From Alphaproteobacteria bacterium (GTDB lineage: Bacteria > Pseudomonadota > Alphaproteobacteria > MPNO01), in contig CBDFLJ010000002.1 in the NCBI GenBank assembly GCA_965248835.1, positions 1,280,001-1,344,000 of the forward strand: a stretch of DNA of 64,000 nucleotides, read 5' to 3'. Position numbers and translations under genes: made by a program. Shown piece after piece: positions 22,407 through 29,081 of the stretch (the first letter of the stretch is position 1; each line of letters opens with the position of its first letter). The notes beneath the pieces are model-generated. The model ran no database searches. It was not told where the DNA came from and saw only the letters and a list, made by a program, of their open reading frames with translations.

Positions 22407-25400
22407 TCAGGCCTCGATCACCGAAGATACGCCGCTGAGTGATCCGAGGCGGTCGGACGCCTCGGCCGGCACCGCATAACCGCCCGGCAGCACCAGTTCG
22501 ACCTCGCGGGCAGCCTCGATGCCGATCACCAGGCTCACCCGGCCGCAGCCGGGCTGCCATGCCGCGATCTGGCCGCGCACGCTCTCTAGACAGTCCGGAT
22601 CATCGATGCGGACCTGAATCCCGGTTTCAATCCGTTTGACGACCTCGTCCAACGCCTCGATCTTCTGGGCCATCAACCGAACGCCCTCGCCGTCGGAGCG
22701 GACCTCGGCGGTGACCAGCACCCGTGCGTTGGGCTCCAACAACGCGCGCGCGCCGGCCAAGAGCTCCGAGAACGCGAGCACCTCGTATGCCCCGGCGGTG
22801 TCGGCGAGCCGGATATAGGCAAACCGGTTGCCCTTGGACGAGGTCCGTTCCTGGCGCCCGAGAACGACCCCGGCAAGCCGCTTGGTGTCGCCCTGGGCCA
22901 CCTCCGCCACGGCATTGGAAGGGACCACGCGAAGCCGGCTCAGCCGCGCGCCGTAGGCATCCAGCGGATGGGCGGAAAGATAGAAACCCACCGCCTCGAA
23001 CTCCTGGTCGAGCCGTTCCATCGGCGACCAGTCGGCGATGTCGGGACGGCCCGCCCCAAGCGGTGCGAGCTCCCTGGCGGCCTCGCCGAACAGGTTGGCC
23101 TGGCTGGTCTGGCGCTCCTCGGCCGCGGTCTGTCCGAGCTTCGCCAGGAGATCGATGCTCTCGAAGAGCTGCCGCCGGTTGGGGTTCAGGCAATCCAACG
23201 CACCCGCGCGCACCAGGTTCTCCATCTGGCGGCGGTTGGCCATCCGCCCGCCCAGGCGGCGAGCGAAATCGAACTCGTCGGTGAACGTGCCGTTCCGCTC
23301 GCGCTCGTCGAGAAGGTCGGCCATCGCCTGTTCGCCGACATTCCTGATTGCCGCAAGGGAATAGCGGATCGCAGGCTTTGCGGCGCCGTTGCTGGCCGGC
23401 TCGACTGCGAACGAGACTTCCGACCGGTTGACGTCGGGCGGCAGCAACGGCACGCCGAGACGGTCGAGCTCGTGGCGAAACGCACTCAGCTTGTCGGTAT
23501 TGCCGACATCGAGCGACATCAGGGCGGCCAAGAACTCGACCGGGTAGTTGGCCTTCAACCAAGCGGTCTGGTAGGCGACCAGCGCATAGGCCGCGGCGTG
23601 AGACTTGTTGAAACCGTAGCCGGCGAACTTGTCGACCAGCTCGAAGATCTGCTCAGCCTTGGCGGCATCGACCCCGCGGGCGGTGGCACCTTCGACGAAG
23701 GCGCCGCGCTGGGCCTTCATCTCGGCCTTGATCTTCTTGCCCATCGCGCGCCGCAGCAAGTCGGCTGCGGCCAGGCTGAAGCCCGACAGGCGCTGGGCGA
23801 TCTGCATGACCTGTTCCTGATAGATGATCACGCCGAATGTCTCGCGCAGGATCTCTTCCAGGTCCGGATGCAGGTAATCGGGCTCCTCACGGCCGTGCTT
23901 GCAGGCGTTGTAGCGTGGGATGTTGTCCATCGGCCCGGGCCGGTAGAGCGCGACCAGAGCGATCAGGTCCTCGAAGCAATCGGGCTTCATCTGGCGCAGT
24001 ACGTCGCGCATGCCCGCGCTTTCCATCTGGAACACCCCGGTGGCATCGCCGCGGCCGAGCATCGCGTAGGTCGCCGGATCGTCGAGCGGCAGGGACAGCA
24101 GGTCGGGCGGGCTTTCCCGTCGGGCGATAAACTTCAGCGCCCTGTCGAGGACGGTGAGCGTCTTCAGTCCAAGAAAGTCGAACTTCACCAGACCGGCCAA
24201 CTCGGTGTATTTCATCGAGAACTGGGTCGCCGGCAATTCCGAACGCGGATCGCGATAGAGCGGGATCAGTTCCGTCAACGGCCGGTCGGCGATCACCACG
24301 CCCGCAGCATGGGTCGAGGTGTGGCGGTATAGGCCTTCCAGTTTCATCGCGATGTCGATCAGCCGGGCGACGGTCTCGTCGCCGTTGCGGATCTGGCGAA
24401 GCTGCGGCTCCTGCTCCAACGCCTGGGCCAGTGTCGGCGGCTTGGCCGGGTTGAACGGCACGAGCTTGCAGATCCGGTCGACCTGGCCGTAGGGCATGCC
24501 GAGGACACGACCGACATCGCGCAGTGCCGCACGGGCCTGGAGGGTCCCGAAGGTGATGATCTGGGCGACCCTGTCGGCGCCGTACTTGTCCTGAACGTAG
24601 GCGATCACCTCGTCGCGCCGGTCCTGGCAGAAGTCGATGTCGAAGTCCGGCATGGAGACCCTGTCCGGGTTGAGGAAGCGCTCGAACAGGAGGCCGAACC
24701 GCAGCGGATCGAGGTCGGTGATGGTGAGCGCCCACGCAACGACGGATCCGGCACCGGAACCGCGCCCGGGACCGACCGGGATGTGCTGCTGCTTGGCCCA
24801 TTGGATGAAGTCGGCAACGATCAGAAAATAGCCCGGAAAGCCCATCGAAATGATCACGTCGAGCTCAAATTCGAGTCGTTCGAAATAGGGTTCGGGATCG
24901 ACGTGCAATTTCGCCAACCGCGCCTCGAGCCCCGAACGGGCGGCCGCGCGCAGCGCATCGGCCTCGCTCCTGCCCTCGGCGTCTTCGAAGCCGGGCAGGA
25001 TCGGATCGTGGGGCCGGGGCATGAAGGCGCAGCGTTGGGCAATCACCACGGTGTTGTCGACCGCTTCGGGCAGGTCGGCGAAGACCGCGCGCATCTCCGC
25101 TGCATCGCGAAACCGATGGTCGGGTGTCAGCCGCCTGCGTTCGGTATCGGCGACGTGGGTGCCCTGGGCGATGCACAGCAGCACGTCATGGGCCTCATAC
25201 ATCGAGGCGTCGGCGAAATAGATGTCGTTGGTCGCGACCAGCGGCAGGTCGTGGGTCATCGCCAGGTCGATCAAGTCATCCTCGATCCGGCGCTCGATCT
25301 CTTCTCCGTGGCGGGTGAGCTCGATATAAAGCCGGCCGGGGAACGCGCCGCGAAGCTGCTGCAGCACCCCGCTCGCCTTTTGCACCTGGCCGTCGGCGAG

Positions 25401-25853
25401 CAACCGTCCCAGCGCGCCCGAAGCACCGCCGGTCAGCGCGATCAACCCTTCCGCACGGGCCTCCACATCGGCGAAGCCGACATGGGGCTCGCCGCCGCCT
25501 GAGTCCAGATAGGCCTTGGTGACCAGTGTGACCAAGTTACGGTAGCCGTCCCGATTCTGAACCAGCAGCACCAGGTTGTCGTGGCCCACCGGCCGGCCGT
25601 TGCGGATGGTGCTGCCGGCATCGGCTTCCATCCGGGCAATCGAGAGCTGGCAGCCGATGATCGGCTGCACGCCGGCCTCCGCAGCAGCGAGCGCGAACTC
25701 GAGCGCACCGAACATGTTGTTGGTATCGGTGACCGCGATCGCCGGTATGCCCTGGGCGACGCAAAGCGCCACCAGGTCCTTAACCTTCAGCGCTCCCTCG
25801 GACAGCGAGTAGGCGGTGTGGGTGCGCAGGTGAACGAAGTCGGCATGGGCCAT
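22407..25853 (-). CDS. dnaE: DNA polymerase III alpha subunit
   Basis: PHP domain FVHLRTHTAYSL, GPGRGSGAGS, SMPDFDIDF, KFDFLGL and YGFNKSHA motifs; no intein evident. Confidence 0.98.
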   Translation of the reverse strand: MAHADFVHLRTHTAYSLSEGALKVKDLVALCVAQGIPAIAVTDTNNMFGALEFALAAAEAGVQPIIGCQLSIARMEADAGSTIRNGRPVGHDNLVLLVQNRDGYRNLVTLVTKAYLDSGGGEPHVGFADVEARAEGLIALTGGASGALGRLLADGQVQKASGVLQQLRGAFPGRLYIELTRHGEEIERRIEDDLIDLAMTHDLPLVATNDIYFADASMYEAHDVLLCIAQGTHVADTERRRLTPDHRFRDAAEMRAVFADLPEAVDNTVVIAQRCAFMPRPHDPILPGFEDAEGRSEADALRAAARSGLEARLAKLHVDPEPYFERLEFELDVIISMGFPGYFLIVADFIQWAKQQHIPVGPGRGSGAGSVVAWALTITDLDPLRFGLLFERFLNPDRVSMPDFDIDFCQDRRDEVIAYVQDKYGADRVAQIITFGTLQARAALRDVGRVLGMPYGQVDRICKLVPFNPAKPPTLAQALEQEPQLRQIRNGDETVARLIDIAMKLEGLYRHTSTHAAGVVIADRPLTELIPLYRDPRSELPATQFSMKYTELAGLVKFDFLGLKTLTVLDRALKFIARRESPPDLLSLPLDDPATYAMLGRGDATGVFQMESAGMRDVLRQMKPDCFEDLIALVALYRPGPMDNIPRYNACKHGREEPDYLHPDLEEILRETFGVIIYQEQVMQIAQRLSGFSLAAADLLRRAMGKKIKAEMKAQRGAFVEGATARGVDAAKAEQIFELVDKFAGYGFNKSHAAAYALVAYQTAWLKANYPVEFLAALMSLDVGNTDKLSAFRHELDRLGVPLLPPDVNRSEVSFAVEPASNGAAKPAIRYSLAAIRNVGEQAMADLLDERERNGTFTDEFDFARRLGGRMANRRQMENLVRAGALDCLNPNRRQLFESIDLLAKLGQTAAEERQTSQANLFGEAARELAPLGAGRPDIADWSPMERLDQEFEAVGFYLSAHPLDAYGARLSRLRVVPSNAVAEVAQGDTKRLAGVVLGRQERTSSKGNRFAYIRLADTAGAYEVLAFSELLAGARALLEPNARVLVTAEVRSDGEGVRLMAQKIEALDEVVKRIETGIQVRIDDPDCLESVRGQIAAWQPGCGRVSLVIGIEAAREVELVLPGGYAVPAEASDRLGSLSGVSSVIEA

Positions 25854-25947
25854 GGCGGCATTGAAGATACCGGCCATGCGGGCGAATCAACAGATCCGCC
25901 CGTCGTCCCGGGAAATCAAGATGTGGACAGTTTCGGGCCGGCGGGCG

Positions 25948-27048
25948 TTAGCCCGGCTTGTGCCTGAACGTGTTGACCGCCGAGCCGAAACCGCTGAGCC
26001 CGAGCCGTGCGCGCAGATCCTCGGTCGCCTTCAGGACCATGTCGTCGACGGGGATGCCGAGGCCGTTGGCGATCCGGTCGTTCTTGGTGAAATTGCCCGC
26101 AATCGCCGCGGCTCCGGCAACGGCTGCCGGTCCCAGCGCCTCGCTCAACGCGGTGCGCGCGCGCTCCAGCGCAGCGAGGTCCGCGCCGACCACGGCATCG
26201 GCGTAGGCCAGCAGCACGGCGCCTGCCGGCACGCCGCTGTCCACTTCCGAGCGCATCAGAGCCTCGAGATCGATGTCCAGATCGGCGACTCGTCCACTCT
26301 CACGGAGGAACCTGGCATGGCCGGTGGTTCAGTAGAAGCAACCGTTCAAGGCCGAGATCCGGCCGGCTACGACCTCCGCCTGGACCCGAGCCAGCCCTTC
26401 GTGGTGCCGGTAGTCGTATTCCAGGATACGATGAAGCGGCAGGTATTGGGCCTGTTCCAGCGCCAGATGCAGGCGCAACTCCTCGGGCACCAGACTCATG
26501 GCACGGACGATGTAGGGCATCGGACGACCGCCATAGAGCGCCTCGCCGAGCGCTCTGCCGTCGGGGCCGTTGGGAACCGTCGGCACCCAGGCCAACTCCT
26601 GAACCGCTTCCGCCGGGCGTTCGCGGCTTGGCCGACCGGGCTCGGCTGCCGGCAGCGGCCGCAGCGGCACGCCGATCCCGCGCGCGAAGACATCGATGTT
26701 GGTAATGCGCGAGACCAGACCGATGATCTCGACATACTCGGCGTCACCGAGCCCGTCCTTCAGCGCATCCCGGCAGAACGCCTCGTCGACATCGCCGAGC
26801 GAGAACGCAACCGCTCGGACGACCCGGCGCACCACCTCGGGAAGCTCGGTCTCGACCGCGGCCCCGCCATCGGCGGGCTCTTCGAGGACCCCGGCGTCGT
26901 ACCCCGCCTGCCGGGCTTCGGCTGCGACCGCCAATCGCTGGGCGCCCGTCCCCCACGTCCCCGGCGCGCCCCAACCCGATAGCTGAGTCGCATGGGTCGC
27001 GGCCAGATCGTCCCGCACCGGATAGGCGGAATCCGAATAGAGGCTCAT
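25948..27048 (-). CDS. AhpD/CMD-like alkylhydroperoxidase-related protein, probable selenoprotein (CxxU), 366 aa
   Basis: AAGGAG RBS before ATG 27048; ...RISALNGCFY-TGA(26331-29)-TTGHARFLRESG reads stop-free and in frame into ORF 25948..26256; TGA sits at the second Cys of the AhpD NxCxYCxxxH motif. Confidence 0.82.
26284..26328 (-). promoter_or_regulatory. Putative bacterial SECIS element
   Basis: UUCCUC-[CGUGA]-GAGUGGA hairpin with a bulged U; loop starts 24 nt after the UGA and has GU at loop positions 2-3. Confidence 0.55.
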
Positions 27049-27157
27049 CCACTCTCCTTGCGGGCTGCGTTCGGGTCCGAATTTACCGGGTGAAACAGTC
27101 TGAGAAGCCCCCAGGTCTGTCAATCCCGTGAACTCGCCGGCCGATCACAGTTCCGCG

Positions 27158-27844
27158 CTATGACCGTCGGATCAACCCGTCCTCGAGTACCAGGCGACGG
27201 TCCATGCGCTCGGCGAGCTCCGGGTTGTGGGTGGCGATCAGGGCGGCGGCACCGCGGCCACGGACAATCTCGACCAGGAGCTCGAAGACCGCGCCGGCGG
27301 TCCGACGGTCGAGGTTGCCGGTCGGCTCGTCAGCGATCAGCACGCTCGGCTCGTTGGCCAGCGCGCGGGCGATCGCCACGCGTTGTTGCTCGCCGCCAGA
27401 CAGCCGCGCCGGACGGTGGCTTGCCCGATCGGCGAGCCCAACCTGGGCGAGCAGCGCCTCGGCCATACCGCGCGCAGTGCGCCGCGCCGCCCCGTCGATC
27501 ATCCGCGGCAGGGCGACGTTTTCCAGCGCGGAGAACTCGGGCAGCAGGTGGTGGAACTGGTAGACGAAGCCGAGTTCGGATCGGCGCAGCGCGGTGCGGC
27601 GGTCATCGCTCATCTCCGCGCAGTCCTCGCCGGCCAGACGGATCGAGCCGGCGCTCGGCCGATCGAGAAGCCCAGCGATGTGGAGCAGCGTCGACTTGCC
27701 GGCGCCCGAGGGTCCGACCAGGGCGACGATCTGGCCGGGATGGATCGCCAGCGATACGCCGCGCAGCACCTCCAGCCCGCCGCCCGCCTGGGCGTATATC
27801 TTGCGGATATCTTCCATTGCGAGCGCCGGGACGGGCTCAGCCAT
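27158..27844 (-). CDS. lolD: Lipoprotein-releasing ABC ATPase
   Basis: [40 protein letters not shown] and ADEPTGNLD motifs; overlaps the lolC/E stop. Confidence 0.95.
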
Positions 27845-29081
27845 AGCGCAGTGCCTCGACAGGATCGAGCCGCGCCGCCCGCCATGCCGGATAGATCGTC
27901 GCCAGGAGCGACAGCGCGATCGATATCGCAATCACCGTCACGACGTCGCCGGCTTCCACTTTGGAGGGCAGGCGGGACAGGAAATAGATCTCGGCCGCGA
28001 ACAGCTCCGCCCCCGACAGGCTTTCGAGCCAGCGACGCAGGGTCTCGATATTGCTGGCGAACGCGAGGCCCAGGACGAAGCCGATGAGCGTGCCCAGCAC
28101 GCCCACCGAGGCCCCGGCCAGGAGGAAGACCCGCATCACCGCGCCGCGGGTGGCTCCCATGGTGCGCAGGATCGCGATGTCGCCGCCCTTGTCCTTCACC
28201 AGCATGATCAAGCTGGAGACGATGTTGAAGGCGGCAACCAGGATGATCAGCGTGAGGATCAAGAACATCACGTTGCGCTCGACCTTGATCGCGTTGAAGA
28301 AGGTCGCATTGGCCTGTTGCCAGTCGATGATCCGCACCGGCCCATCGGCGCTGGCGCGCAGCACCGGCGCAATCCGGTCGACCCGGTCGGGATCGTCAAT
28401 GAAGATCTCGAGCTGGCTGACAGCCTGCCCGGTGCGGAAATAGACCTGGGCCGCCTCCAGCGGCATGAAGATGAAGCCGTTGTCGTATTCGAACATGCCG
28501 ACTTCGAAGATCGCCGCCACCGTATATGTCTTGATCCGGGGCAGGGTTCCGAACGCGGTGGCCTTGGCCTGGGGCGCGATTAGGCGCAGCTTTGAGCCGG
28601 TGGTGAGCCCCATGCGCTGCGCGAGCCGCGTGCCGATCATCACCGCACTGCCGCCGCGAAAGGCCTCCAAACTGCCGGCTCGGATGTTCTCGGCCAGGAT
28701 GGAGCGCTTGGCGATATCGGCCGGCCGCATGCCGCGGACCAGCGCACCGCGAGCGACTTTGTTAGCGCTCGCCATTACCTGGCCTTCGACGATCGGAGTG
28801 ACGCTCTTCACGCCGGGCAGGACGCGCAGCCGCTCGGCAAGCGTGTCGAAGTCCTTCAGCGCACCGGTCTGGGCGCGGACGCCGATATGGCCGTTGAGCC
28901 CGAGGATCCGCGACAGCAGCTCGGCGCGGAATCCGTTCATCACCGACATCACGACGATCAGCGTCGCCACCCCGAGCGCGATTCCGGCGAGCGAGAAGCC
29001 GGCGATGACCGAGATGAATCCCTCTTCCCGCCGGGCGCGTAGGTAGCGGAAGGCGATCATCCGCTCGACGGGCGAGAACAT
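27837..29081 (-). CDS. lolE: Lipoprotein-releasing ABC permease LolC/E
   Basis: [25 protein letters not shown] and [17 protein letters not shown] motifs. Confidence 0.95.

What the first reader, a model, noticed from the sequence alone, without database searches (positions are those of the whole stretch)
25948..27048. Hidden selenoprotein: AhpD-like protein with a C-F-Y-U motif, split into two ORFs by standard translation
Seen: ORF 26329..27123 stops at TGA exactly after SALNGCFY. The next 24 codons (TTGHARFLRESGRVADLDIDLEAL) are stop-free and in frame with ORF 25948..26256, giving one 366-aa protein. Known: AhpD/CMD-family peroxidase-like proteins have an N-x-C-x-Y-C-x-x-x-H redox motif, and CxxU variants of AhpD-like proteins have been reported in marine bacteria. 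Here the His lies at the expected +4 position after the TGA. Inference: UGA is recoded as selenocysteine and the organism uses Sec. The gene sits between lolD and dnaE, which are often adjacent, and its substrate is unknown.
Basis: partly seen in the sequence, partly recalled or inferred. Interest (0 to 1): 0.8.

Follow-up and report, generated by a model that had tools for sequence, protein, structure and literature searches.

The report
Known AhpD-related selenoprotein gene (CFYUT family)
The apparent stop codon in the middle of this gene is almost certainly read as selenocysteine, so the two "half genes" are one 366-residue redox enzyme, but it belongs to a selenoprotein family that is already curated and was first reported in 2005.

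Summary
On the minus strand, 27048..25948 is one frame. Its single TGA (26331..26329) follows SALNGCFY and precedes TTGH.

The reading as selenocysteine (Sec) is strongly supported:
- The genome has selA, selB, tRNA-Sec and selD.
- The read-through protein scores 356.8 bits (cut-off 175) on NCBIfam NF041238, [quoted passage not shown].
- This genome holds five paralogues, each with one TGA.
- All 100 above-cut-off matches in 41 related genomes carry exactly one TGA.
- 27 of 29 distant full-length homologues have Cys at that column.
- Synonymous sites are frozen just downstream of the TGA, over a conserved hairpin.
- Glu225, Cys237, Sec240 and His244 align with Glu118, Cys130, Cys133 and His137 of M. 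tuberculosis AhpD.

It is not new. A 2026 review equates NF041238 with "hypothetical protein 1" (CxxU) of the 2005 Sargasso Sea selenoproteome. This scan has noted AhpD-like CxxU genes on other DNA many times (221 notes), though none matched this two-domain family by sequence.

- The protein is a tandem double AhpD fold; its best structural match is Sestrin2.
- The window copy's branch lacks the N-terminal CxxC of the main branch and has its own bulged-U hairpin.
- Gene callers truncate the family at residue 239.

The substrate remains unknown.

The parts
25948..27048 (-). Complete coding sequence of the AhpD-related selenoprotein: 366 codons plus TAA, with Sec at codon 240.
   Evidence: NF041238 scores 356.8 bits against a cut-off of 175 over residues 11-355. 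The start ATG 27048 is shared by 12 orthologues that begin M(S/T)(L/F)Y(S/A)DS.
27054..27059 (-). AAGGAG ribosome-binding site, 5 nt upstream of ATG 27048.
   Evidence: Read directly from the sequence.
26329..26331 (-). In-frame TGA, read as the selenocysteine codon (U240).
   Evidence: The same column is TGA in 100 of 100 family matches and Cys in 27 of 29 distant full-length homologues.
26292..26311 (-). SECIS-like hairpin GUUCCUC-[CGUGA]-GAG(U)GGAC: 7 bp with a bulged U and a 5-nt loop containing G. The stem starts 18 nt after the UGA.
   Evidence: It is the minimum-energy fold of the local 29 nt, -5.9 kcal/mol. The sequence is identical in 12 orthologous loci. It sits at the position of the family hairpin, which has a covarying pair. 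Synonymous-site identity peaks here.
26317..26376 (-). Active-site stretch: Glu225 (26376..26374), Cys237 (26340..26338), Tyr239, Sec240 and His244 (26319..26317).
   Evidence: phmmer alignment to M. tuberculosis AhpD 1gu9 places these on Glu118, Cys130, Cys133 and His137. E225, C237, U240 and H244 are invariant in 27 family members.
26599..27048 (-). N-terminal lobe (residues 1-150): a degenerate AhpD/CMD-like helical domain with no CxxC in this copy.
   Evidence: AlphaFold2 model pLDDT 89.8. The top 8 of 48,161 chains are all CMD/AhpD folds at Z 9.2-5.4, and the next is 4.5. The main-branch CxxC and 7 residues are missing here.
25951..26523 (-). C-terminal lobe (residues about 176-366): the catalytic AhpD/CMD domain.
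   Evidence: Pfam CMD PF02627 covers residues 210-284. Foldseek and VIA-align match it to 2prr, 3c1l, 2pfx, 6ohi and 1gu9.
25948..26256 (-). The 102-aa 'second ORF' of standard translation. It is really the last 102 codons of the same gene.
   Evidence: dN/dS downstream of the TGA is 0.36 against the same-genus copy.

Best explanation
This is one intact gene for a 366-residue selenoprotein of the curated family NF041238 (AhpD_rel_CFYUT).

How decoding most likely works: as the ribosome reaches UGA-240, a small hairpin 18 nt downstream (7 bp, bulged U, loop CGUGA) recruits SelB carrying Sec-tRNA(Sec). Selenocysteine is then inserted instead of termination.

The product is a single chain of two AhpD/CMD-type helical lobes. 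The C-terminal lobe carries a complete AhpD-type redox site (Glu225 ... Cys237-Phe-Tyr239-Sec240 ... His244). I infer that Sec240, activated by the Glu/His relay, attacks an oxidised substrate, either an organic hydroperoxide or an oxidised cysteine of a partner peroxiredoxin. Cys237 would then resolve the intermediate into a selenenylsulfide, which a cellular thiol reductant reduces again.

Shown here: the frame, the Sec machinery, the family membership, the Sec/Cys column, the RNA constraint, the fold, and the alignment of catalytic residues.

Inferred: actual Se insertion, the catalytic cycle, the reductant and the substrate.
For: Frame and motif.

Family: NF041238 at 356.8 bits against a cut-off of 175, full length, and 348.2 bits in the genome search.

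Sec machinery in the same genome:
- selA, 517 bits.
- selB, 443.9 bits over model positions 1-577 of 581.
- selD, 309 bits.
- tRNA-SeC(tca) by ARAGORN, and RF01852 at 74.7 bits against a gathering score of 47 at the same place.

The TGA column:
- Five paralogues in this genome each have one TGA.
- 100 of 100 above-cut-off matches in 41 relatives have exactly one TGA.
- 37 of 37 listed matches in a 401-genome class sample do too.
- 97 of the 150 best representative proteins end exactly at query residue 239, which is truncation by gene callers (counted by eye).
- 27 of 29 aligned full-length representatives have Cys at the Sec column.

The region downstream is translated and also constrained as RNA:
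- Amino-acid conservation continues to the C-terminus.
- Synonymous-codon identity is 0.88 and 0.80 in the 8-codon windows starting at codons +3 and +7 after the TGA. The gene-wide value is 0.51, and 0.68 is the highest value in any other window.
- RNAalifold predicts the hairpin, and pair 34-50 covaries (CG 27, GC 3, AU 2). 91.6% of cells are paired, against 25-53% when one arm is slid.
- The window copy's hairpin is the local minimum-energy fold and is identical in 12 orthologues.

Catalytic residues align to Glu118, Cys130, Cys133 and His137 of AhpD 1gu9. The role of these residues is taken from passages of PMC3141380 and PMC4674687.

The structure model has pLDDT 90.9, and both lobes match AhpD/CMD folds.
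Against: - No direct evidence of selenium in the protein.
- The window copy is the lowest-scoring of the five paralogues.
- Its hairpin is weak: -5.9 kcal/mol, against -8.7 to -12.1 for three main-branch copies.
- A 71-nt fold around the TGA is no more stable than shuffled sequence, z +0.55.
- No Rfam family, SECIS models included, matched at E up to 10.
- Covariation rests on one pair only.
- Two members of this branch in other genomes look damaged: G012 has an extra TAG, and G001 has a frameshifting deletion of about 88 codons in a short MAG contig. The branch is therefore not always maintained.
- The 'C' at the Sec column of distant homologues could in principle be a stored U, because the tools show U as C. 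I judge them true Cys, since ordinary gene callers do not read through TGA.
- There is no ahpC or other redox partner next to the gene, so the peroxidase role is by analogy only.
Confidence: 0.9

Rival explanations
1. Nonsense pseudogene: this particular copy is a decaying paralogue whose TGA now simply terminates translation. The other four copies would do the work.
For: - It is the lowest family score of the five copies (348 against 409-475 bits).
- It has a weak hairpin.
- It has lost the N-terminal CxxC.
- Two relatives of this branch are damaged.
- It lies between housekeeping genes, with no redox partner.
Against: - The TGA is the ancestral state of the whole family, not a new mutation.
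- Both halves are intact, with no further stop or frameshift.
- All invariant family residues are kept, including T241, H244, L248 and R249 after the TGA.
- The hairpin sequence is identical in 12 orthologues from other genera.
- dN/dS downstream of the TGA is 0.36.
Confidence: 0.05
2. Two separate proteins: a 239-residue protein that ends at the TGA, and a 102-residue protein started at ATG 26256 behind the weak GAGG.
For: - Standard ORF calling gives exactly these two ORFs.
- Public predictions list the 239-aa form (97 of 150 representatives). A few list the downstream piece as its own protein (P0244, P0245, P0250, P0254).
- GAGG lies 5 nt before ATG 26256.
Against: - The 24 codons between the TGA and ATG 26256 are conserved as protein and include the catalytic His244.
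- The Met at 26256 is not conserved in homologues; that column is M, I, L, V and others.
- Cys-form homologues are single chains of 360-420 residues.
- The AhpD helix-turn-helix would be cut through its active site.
Confidence: 0.02
3. Sec is inserted, but the enzyme is not a peroxidase-type protein. Instead it would be a thiol/selenol-dependent reductase of another substrate, for instance a reductive dehalogenase like the CMD-family debrominase Bmp8, or a partner-specific disulfide reductase.
For: - Bmp8 (6ohi) is the second-best structural match, Z 12.7, rmsd 2.9, 176 residues aligned.
- There are five to eight paralogues per genome in varied gene neighbourhoods, which suggests several substrates.
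- No ahpC lies beside the gene.
Against: - Bmp8's Z is tied with plain peroxidase-related CMD proteins (12.2, 12.0, 11.1), so the match only says 'CMD fold'.
- The full Glu/Cys/Tyr/Sec/His relay is the AhpD-type one.
Confidence: 0.15

Closest known systems
NCBIfam NF041238 'AhpD_rel_CFYUT', alkylhydroperoxidase-related (seleno)protein. A 2026 review (PMC13188914, passages seen) equates it with 'hypothetical protein 1' (CxxU) of the Sargasso Sea selenoproteome (Zhang et al. 2005, PMC1088965, passages seen).
   Same: Full-length match at twice the curated cut-off. Same C-F-Y-U-T motif, same length, same single TGA.
   Different: The window copy belongs to a side branch. That branch lacks the N-terminal CxxC and 7 residues, and it uses a bulged-U variant of the hairpin.
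'AhpD-like protein' / 'AhpD-like 1' selenoproteins (COG2128, TIGR01926; CxxU; about 180-190 aa) of marine metagenomes (PMC1088965 and PMC2398784, passages seen).
   Same: CxxU at the AhpD redox site, and the same CMD fold in the C-terminal lobe.
   Different: Those are single-domain proteins. Here TIGR01926 scores 27.4 bits against a cut-off of 81.8, and there is an extra N-terminal lobe.
Mycobacterium tuberculosis AhpD (1gu9/1knc) and the 'peroxidase-related' AhpD-core proteins 2prr, 2pfx, 3c1l and 6k40.
   Same: The Glu ... Cys-x-x-Cys ... His relay aligns residue for residue, with Sec at the second Cys. The fold matches.
   Different: Sec replaces Cys. The chain has two lobes. It is not next to ahpC. 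The AhpD model TIGR00777 scores 21.1 bits against a cut-off of 191.95.
Human Sestrin2 (5cuf).
   Same: It is the best whole-chain structural match: Z 16.8, rmsd 3.3 A, 247 residues aligned, model residues 1-332. Both are single chains of two AhpD-like lobes, one catalytic and one degenerate. Sestrin2's pseudo-symmetry and alkylhydroperoxidase site are taken from passages of PMC4674687.
   Different: No sequence similarity was detectable: a Pfam scan at E up to 1 lists only CMD. In Sestrin2 the catalytic lobe is N-terminal and keeps only the first Cys. Here it is C-terminal, with Cys plus Sec. Shared ancestry is not shown.

Membership tests
NCBIfam NF041238 (AhpD_rel_CFYUT) | Score over the curated cut-off across the full model | tested here: met
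   356.8 bits against a cut-off of 175, residues 11-355 on model positions 1-356 of 357. 348.2 bits in the six-frame genome search.
NCBIfam NF041238 (AhpD_rel_CFYUT) | C-F-Y-U-T motif with the U encoded by an in-frame TGA | tested here: met
   NGCFY-TGA-TTGH at 26346..26317.
Bacterial selenoprotein gene | selA, selB, selC (tRNA-Sec) and selD in the same genome | tested here: met
   with 70, and 10. All are over their curated cut-offs.
Bacterial selenoprotein gene | The UGA column aligns with Cys in homologues, with conservation on both sides | tested here: met
   27 of 29 full-length representatives have Cys there and 2 have Gly. I aligned 29 of the 36 listed rows that span the site. Conservation on both sides.
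Bacterial selenoprotein gene | SECIS stem-loop just downstream of the UGA, with a small apical loop containing G | tested here: met
   Family hairpin with one covarying pair. Synonymous identity is 0.88 and 0.80 against a gene-wide 0.51. The window-copy hairpin is -5.9 kcal/mol with loop CGUGA. It is weak in this copy, and no Rfam model matched.
Bacterial selenoprotein gene | Selenium actually present in the full-length protein | not testable with these tools
   Needs 75Se labelling or mass spectrometry.
CMD/AhpD superfamily (Pfam PF02627) | Domain score over the gathering threshold, and the fold | tested here: met
   26.6 bits against 23, residues 210-284. Structural matches at Z 11-12.7 for the C-lobe and Z 7-9 for the N-lobe.
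AhpD proper (TIGR00777) | Score over the model's cut-off | tested here: not met
   21.1 bits against a cut-off of 191.95.
AhpD proper (TIGR00777) | Catalytic Glu ... Cys-x-x-Cys ... His relay | tested here: met
   E225, C237, U240 and H244 align with Glu118, Cys130, Cys133 and His137 of 1gu9.
AhpD proper (TIGR00777) | Gene adjacent to ahpC (recalled as typical of AhpD; not taken from any call) | tested here: not met
   The neighbours are a LolD-like ATPase and DnaE. I did not search the rest of the genome for ahpC.
Single-domain AhpD-like selenoprotein (TIGR01926/COG2128) | Score over the cut-off, and a single-domain length of about 180-190 aa | tested here: not met
   27.4 bits against 81.8. 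The protein is 366 aa with two lobes.
Sestrin (PA26) | Tandem AhpD-like lobes in one chain | tested here: inconclusive
Best whole-chain match is 5cuf_A at Z 16.8.
Sestrin (PA26) | Sequence match to the family | tested here: not met
   The Pfam scan at E up to 1 lists only CMD.

The most novel reading that the evidence does not exclude
The NF041238 proteins are bacterial counterparts of eukaryotic sestrins. On this reading they are single-chain, pseudo-symmetric tandem AhpD folds with one catalytic and one remodelled lobe, here with selenocysteine at the catalytic site. They are expanded to five to eight paralogues per genome in one alphaproteobacterial order, and each paralogue would serve a different oxidised substrate. 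If the resemblance reflects shared ancestry rather than independent duplication of a CMD domain, it would give sestrins a prokaryotic origin and a tractable bacterial model.
Probability: 0.12. Interest if true: 0.5.

Novelty: already known. Interest (0 to 1): 0.15.

Why it matters
The main value is for annotation. Public gene predictions cut this family at residue 239: 97 of the 150 best representative proteins do, as does this genome's own gene call, P0002. Selenoproteomes of these alphaproteobacteria are therefore undercounted by several genes per genome.

Biologically it confirms that the organism uses selenocysteine. It also shows that the organism invests in five copies of one uncharacterised Sec enzyme. 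No member of that family appears to have been studied biochemically. My four literature searches turned up only bioinformatic listings.

Tried and rejected
- Rfam scan of 25500..27500 at E up to 10 gave no SECIS or other credible family.
- The 71-nt fold around the TGA is not more stable than shuffled sequence, z +0.55. My first 28-nt cut of the window hairpin started too far 3' and gave a meaningless fold (first row). The correct 29-nt cut gives the bulged-U hairpin as the minimum-energy fold.
- Conserved-neighbour search found no link to dnaE or lolD in 13 loci fetched as candidate orthologues (12 are orthologues of the window copy; L060 belongs to another branch). The only conserved neighbour, in 10 of 11 loci, is a convergent 257-aa CMD-family gene that is not near the window copy.
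- Neighbours of four other paralogues in this genome share nothing: MetE-like and PhyH; cupin and MFS; dienelactone hydrolase and citrate synthase; tgt and queG.
- Test for internal duplication by sequence: hhalign of the N-lobe against the C-lobe gave only 39 columns, P 9e-4, probability 23%. This is suggestive, not proof.
- A profile of the N-lobe against PDB sequences gave only marginal hits: annexins at E 0.007-0.02, which I judge spurious, and AhpD 6k40 at E 0.017.
- Foldseek on the whole model gave no match at E <= 0.001. The best was 2prr at E 0.013.
- Earlier-findings look-ups by place and by sequence returned nothing.
- One search failed on a script error and was rerun.

Full report
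**Observation.** On the minus strand, the ORF that starts at 27123 stops at TGA 26331..26329, right after ...SALNGCFY. The next 24 codons (TTGHARFLRESGRVADLDIDLEAL) are open and lead in frame into ORF 26256..25948. Read with TGA=U from ATG 27048, the frame gives 366 residues with U at position 240 and His at 244. ATG 27048 has AAGGAG five bases upstream. Twelve orthologues start at the same place with M(S/T)(L/F)Y(S/A)DS. The flanking genes are dnaE (22407..25877), a LolD-like ATPase (27158..27844) and lolC/E (27837..29081).

**Selenocysteine machinery.** The window's genome (two contigs, 4.89 Mb) encodes all four components:
- SelA, 517 bits.
- SelB, 443.9 bits over model positions 1-577 of 581.
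- SelD, 309 bits.
- One tRNA-SeC(tca), found by ARAGORN and by Rfam RF01852 at 74.7 bits against a gathering score of 47 at the same site.

selA, selB and the tRNA gene lie within 5.4 kb of each other on contig 1.

**Family.** The read-through protein matches NCBIfam NF041238, 'AhpD_rel_CFYUT, alkylhydroperoxidase-related (seleno)protein'. The score is 356.8 bits against a curated cut-off of 175, end to end. Pfam sees only a CMD domain at residues 210-284.
- This genome has five matches over the cut-off, each with exactly one in-frame TGA. The window copy scores lowest.
- In 41 related genomes, 32 have the family. All 100 matches over the cut-off contain exactly one TGA, and one of them has an extra TAG (counted by eye).
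- In an even sample of 401 genomes of the class, 21 have the family. All 37 listed matches have one TGA, and none is a Cys form.
- In the large protein collections the family appears almost only as truncated calls. All 120 listed hits cover at most 65% of the query. In one search, 97 of the 150 best representatives end exactly at query residue 239 (counted by eye).
- 36 of those 150 rows span the site. I aligned 29 of them, leaving out P0192, P0194, P0196, P0213, P0216, P0225 and P0243. Of the 29, 27 have Cys at the Sec column and 2 have Gly.

This gives the classical Sec/Cys pair. One caveat applies: the tools display U as C, so I infer rather than know that these are true Cys forms.

**Translation continues past the TGA, and the RNA there is constrained.** In an alignment of 27 full-length read-through proteins, E225, C237, U240, T241, H244, L248 and R249 are invariant, and conservation runs to the C-terminus. 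I then compared 45 family genes using the 872 pairs below 75% amino-acid identity. Gene-wide, identical residues are encoded by identical codons 51% of the time. The highest value in any other 8-codon window is 0.68. In the windows starting at codons +3 and +7 after the TGA, the values are 0.88 and 0.80, and codons +7 to +10 are at 1.00.

RNAalifold on 34 members predicts a 6-bp stem with loop CGUG(C/A) starting 18 nt after the UGA. Pair 34-50 shows compensatory change (CG 27, GC 3, AU 2). 91.6% of cells are paired, against 25-53% when one arm is slid.

The window copy deviates at one pair. Its local minimum-energy fold is GUUCCUC[CGUGA]GAG(U)GGAC, 7 bp with a bulged U, at -5.9 kcal/mol. The same 20 bases are identical in 12 orthologous loci from other genera. 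This hairpin is weaker than main-branch ones, which fold at -8.7 to -12.1 kcal/mol. A 71-nt fold is not special, and no Rfam model matched. A small apical loop containing G is the feature the 2005 paper names for bacterial SECIS elements (passage seen). The usual figure of 16-37 nt from the UGA to the loop is recalled, not taken from a call.

**Active site and fold.** phmmer against PDB sequences aligns residues 211-276 with M. tuberculosis AhpD (1gu9). It places E225, C237, U240 and H244 on Glu118, Cys130, Cys133 and His137. It also aligns the motif with the CxxC...H of 6k40 and 3c1l. Passages of PMC3141380 name Glu118, Cys130, His132, Cys133 and His137 as the proton relay. Passages of PMC4674687 give the equivalent Glu74, Cys86, Tyr88, Cys89 and His93 in 2prr. 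That Cys133 is the attacking nucleophile in AhpD is my recollection, not from a call.

AlphaFold2 with the 27-sequence alignment gives an all-helical model (pLDDT 90.9, pTM 0.92). Foldseek matches the C-terminal half to AhpD-core proteins (2prr, 3c1l, 2pfx; TM about 0.65 on the target; E about 0.01). The wide VIA-align search ranks human Sestrin2 first (Z 16.8, rmsd 3.3 A, 247 residues aligned, model residues 1-332). Single-domain CMD proteins come next: Bmp8 at 12.7, 2pfx at 12.2, 3lvy at 12.0, 2gmy at 11.1 and AhpD at 8.2.

Folded alone, the N-terminal 150 residues (pLDDT 89.8) have CMD/AhpD folds as their top eight matches of 48,161 chains (Z 9.2 to 5.4), followed by a drop to 4.5. A profile comparison of the two halves finds a weak repeat of the last helix pair (39 columns, P 9e-4). 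The protein is thus a tandem double AhpD fold, the architecture Sestrin2 is described as having. Whether that reflects ancestry is open.

**What is particular to the window copy.** It and its orthologues form a side branch at 57-66% identity to each other and 35-40% to the main branch. The side branch lacks a CxxC (RNAxxCxLC) and seven residues that the main branch has in the N-lobe.

Its position between lolD and dnaE is not conserved:
- In G006 and G007, lolD abuts dnaE with nothing between them.
- In G002 (same genus), a histidine kinase lies upstream of dnaE. G005 shows neither gene within 1.5 kb.
- In G001 (same genus, a 64%-complete MAG), the gene lies upstream of dnaE but carries a frameshifting deletion of about 88 codons.

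Downstream of the TGA, dN/dS against that copy is 0.36.

None of the 13 loci fetched as candidate orthologues in other genera (12 are true orthologues; L060 belongs to another branch) is near dnaE or lolD. Ten of the eleven orthologous loci compared with L050 share a convergent 257-aa CMD-family neighbour. The other four paralogues of this genome have unrelated neighbours. Gene context therefore gives no functional partner.

**Literature.** AhpD-like CxxU selenoproteins were reported from the Sargasso Sea in 2005 (27 sequences). The same paper describes 'hypothetical protein 1', with four sequences and a conserved CXXU motif (passages of PMC1088965). 'AhpD-like 1' was among the most abundant selenoprotein families in the GOS data, with 299 sequences (passages of PMC2398784). 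[quoted passage not shown] It is the only paper in the library that holds the accession. This scan holds 221 notes on AhpD-like CxxU genes in other genomes. None matches this family by sequence.

**Verdict.** This is a real and intact selenoprotein gene (confidence about 0.9) of an already curated family. The mechanism of decoding is well supported. The chemistry is inferred from conserved AhpD residues, and the substrate is unknown.

Noticed in passing
G000 loci L013, L014, L015, L016, plus the window copy (L017): This genome holds five NF041238 paralogues, each with one in-frame TGA. Relatives hold up to 8 matches at E<=0.001 per genome, of which roughly 5-6 are over the family cut-off. That is an unusual expansion for one selenoprotein family.
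   Followed up: partly
Alignment A2, columns about 50-66 (window residues about 49-58): Main-branch family members have a second, N-lobe CxxC (RNAxxCxLCxxRK). The window copy and its orthologues have lost it together with 7 residues. Its role is unknown.
   Followed up: partly
L065 (G001:C268) 723-1539: The same-genus orthologue upstream of dnaE has a frameshifting deletion of about 88 codons (model positions about 142-231) between short GGCC repeats. It is either a real pseudogene or a MAG assembly error on a 2.1-kb contig.
   Followed up: partly
L056 (G012:C1:2147504-2148538): This orthologue has an extra in-frame TAG about 25 codons before the Sec codon, so it is probably a pseudogene.
   Followed up: no
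L050:5106-5879 (minus strand) and the same place in 10 of 11 orthologous loci: A convergent 257-aa CMD-family gene is the only conserved neighbour of the window copy's orthologues. It matches PF02627. Its best NCBIfam hit is 'YciW-related (seleno)protein' at 61 bits, far below that model's cut-off of 310.
   Followed up: partly
L016 (G000:C1:744713-748768): Another paralogue sits between tgt and queG, the queuosine genes. Like the window copy between lolD and dnaE, it looks inserted between housekeeping genes.
   Followed up: no
G000:C2:114413-114497: A second RF01852 (tRNA-Sec) hit scores 47.1 bits, just at the gathering score of 47. ARAGORN called only one tRNA-SeC, so this is probably a long-arm tRNA.
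   Followed up: no
window 26332-27048 (protein P0002): The protein collection holds this genome's own call of the gene as a 239-aa protein. The source annotation therefore truncates it at the TGA.
   Followed up: yes
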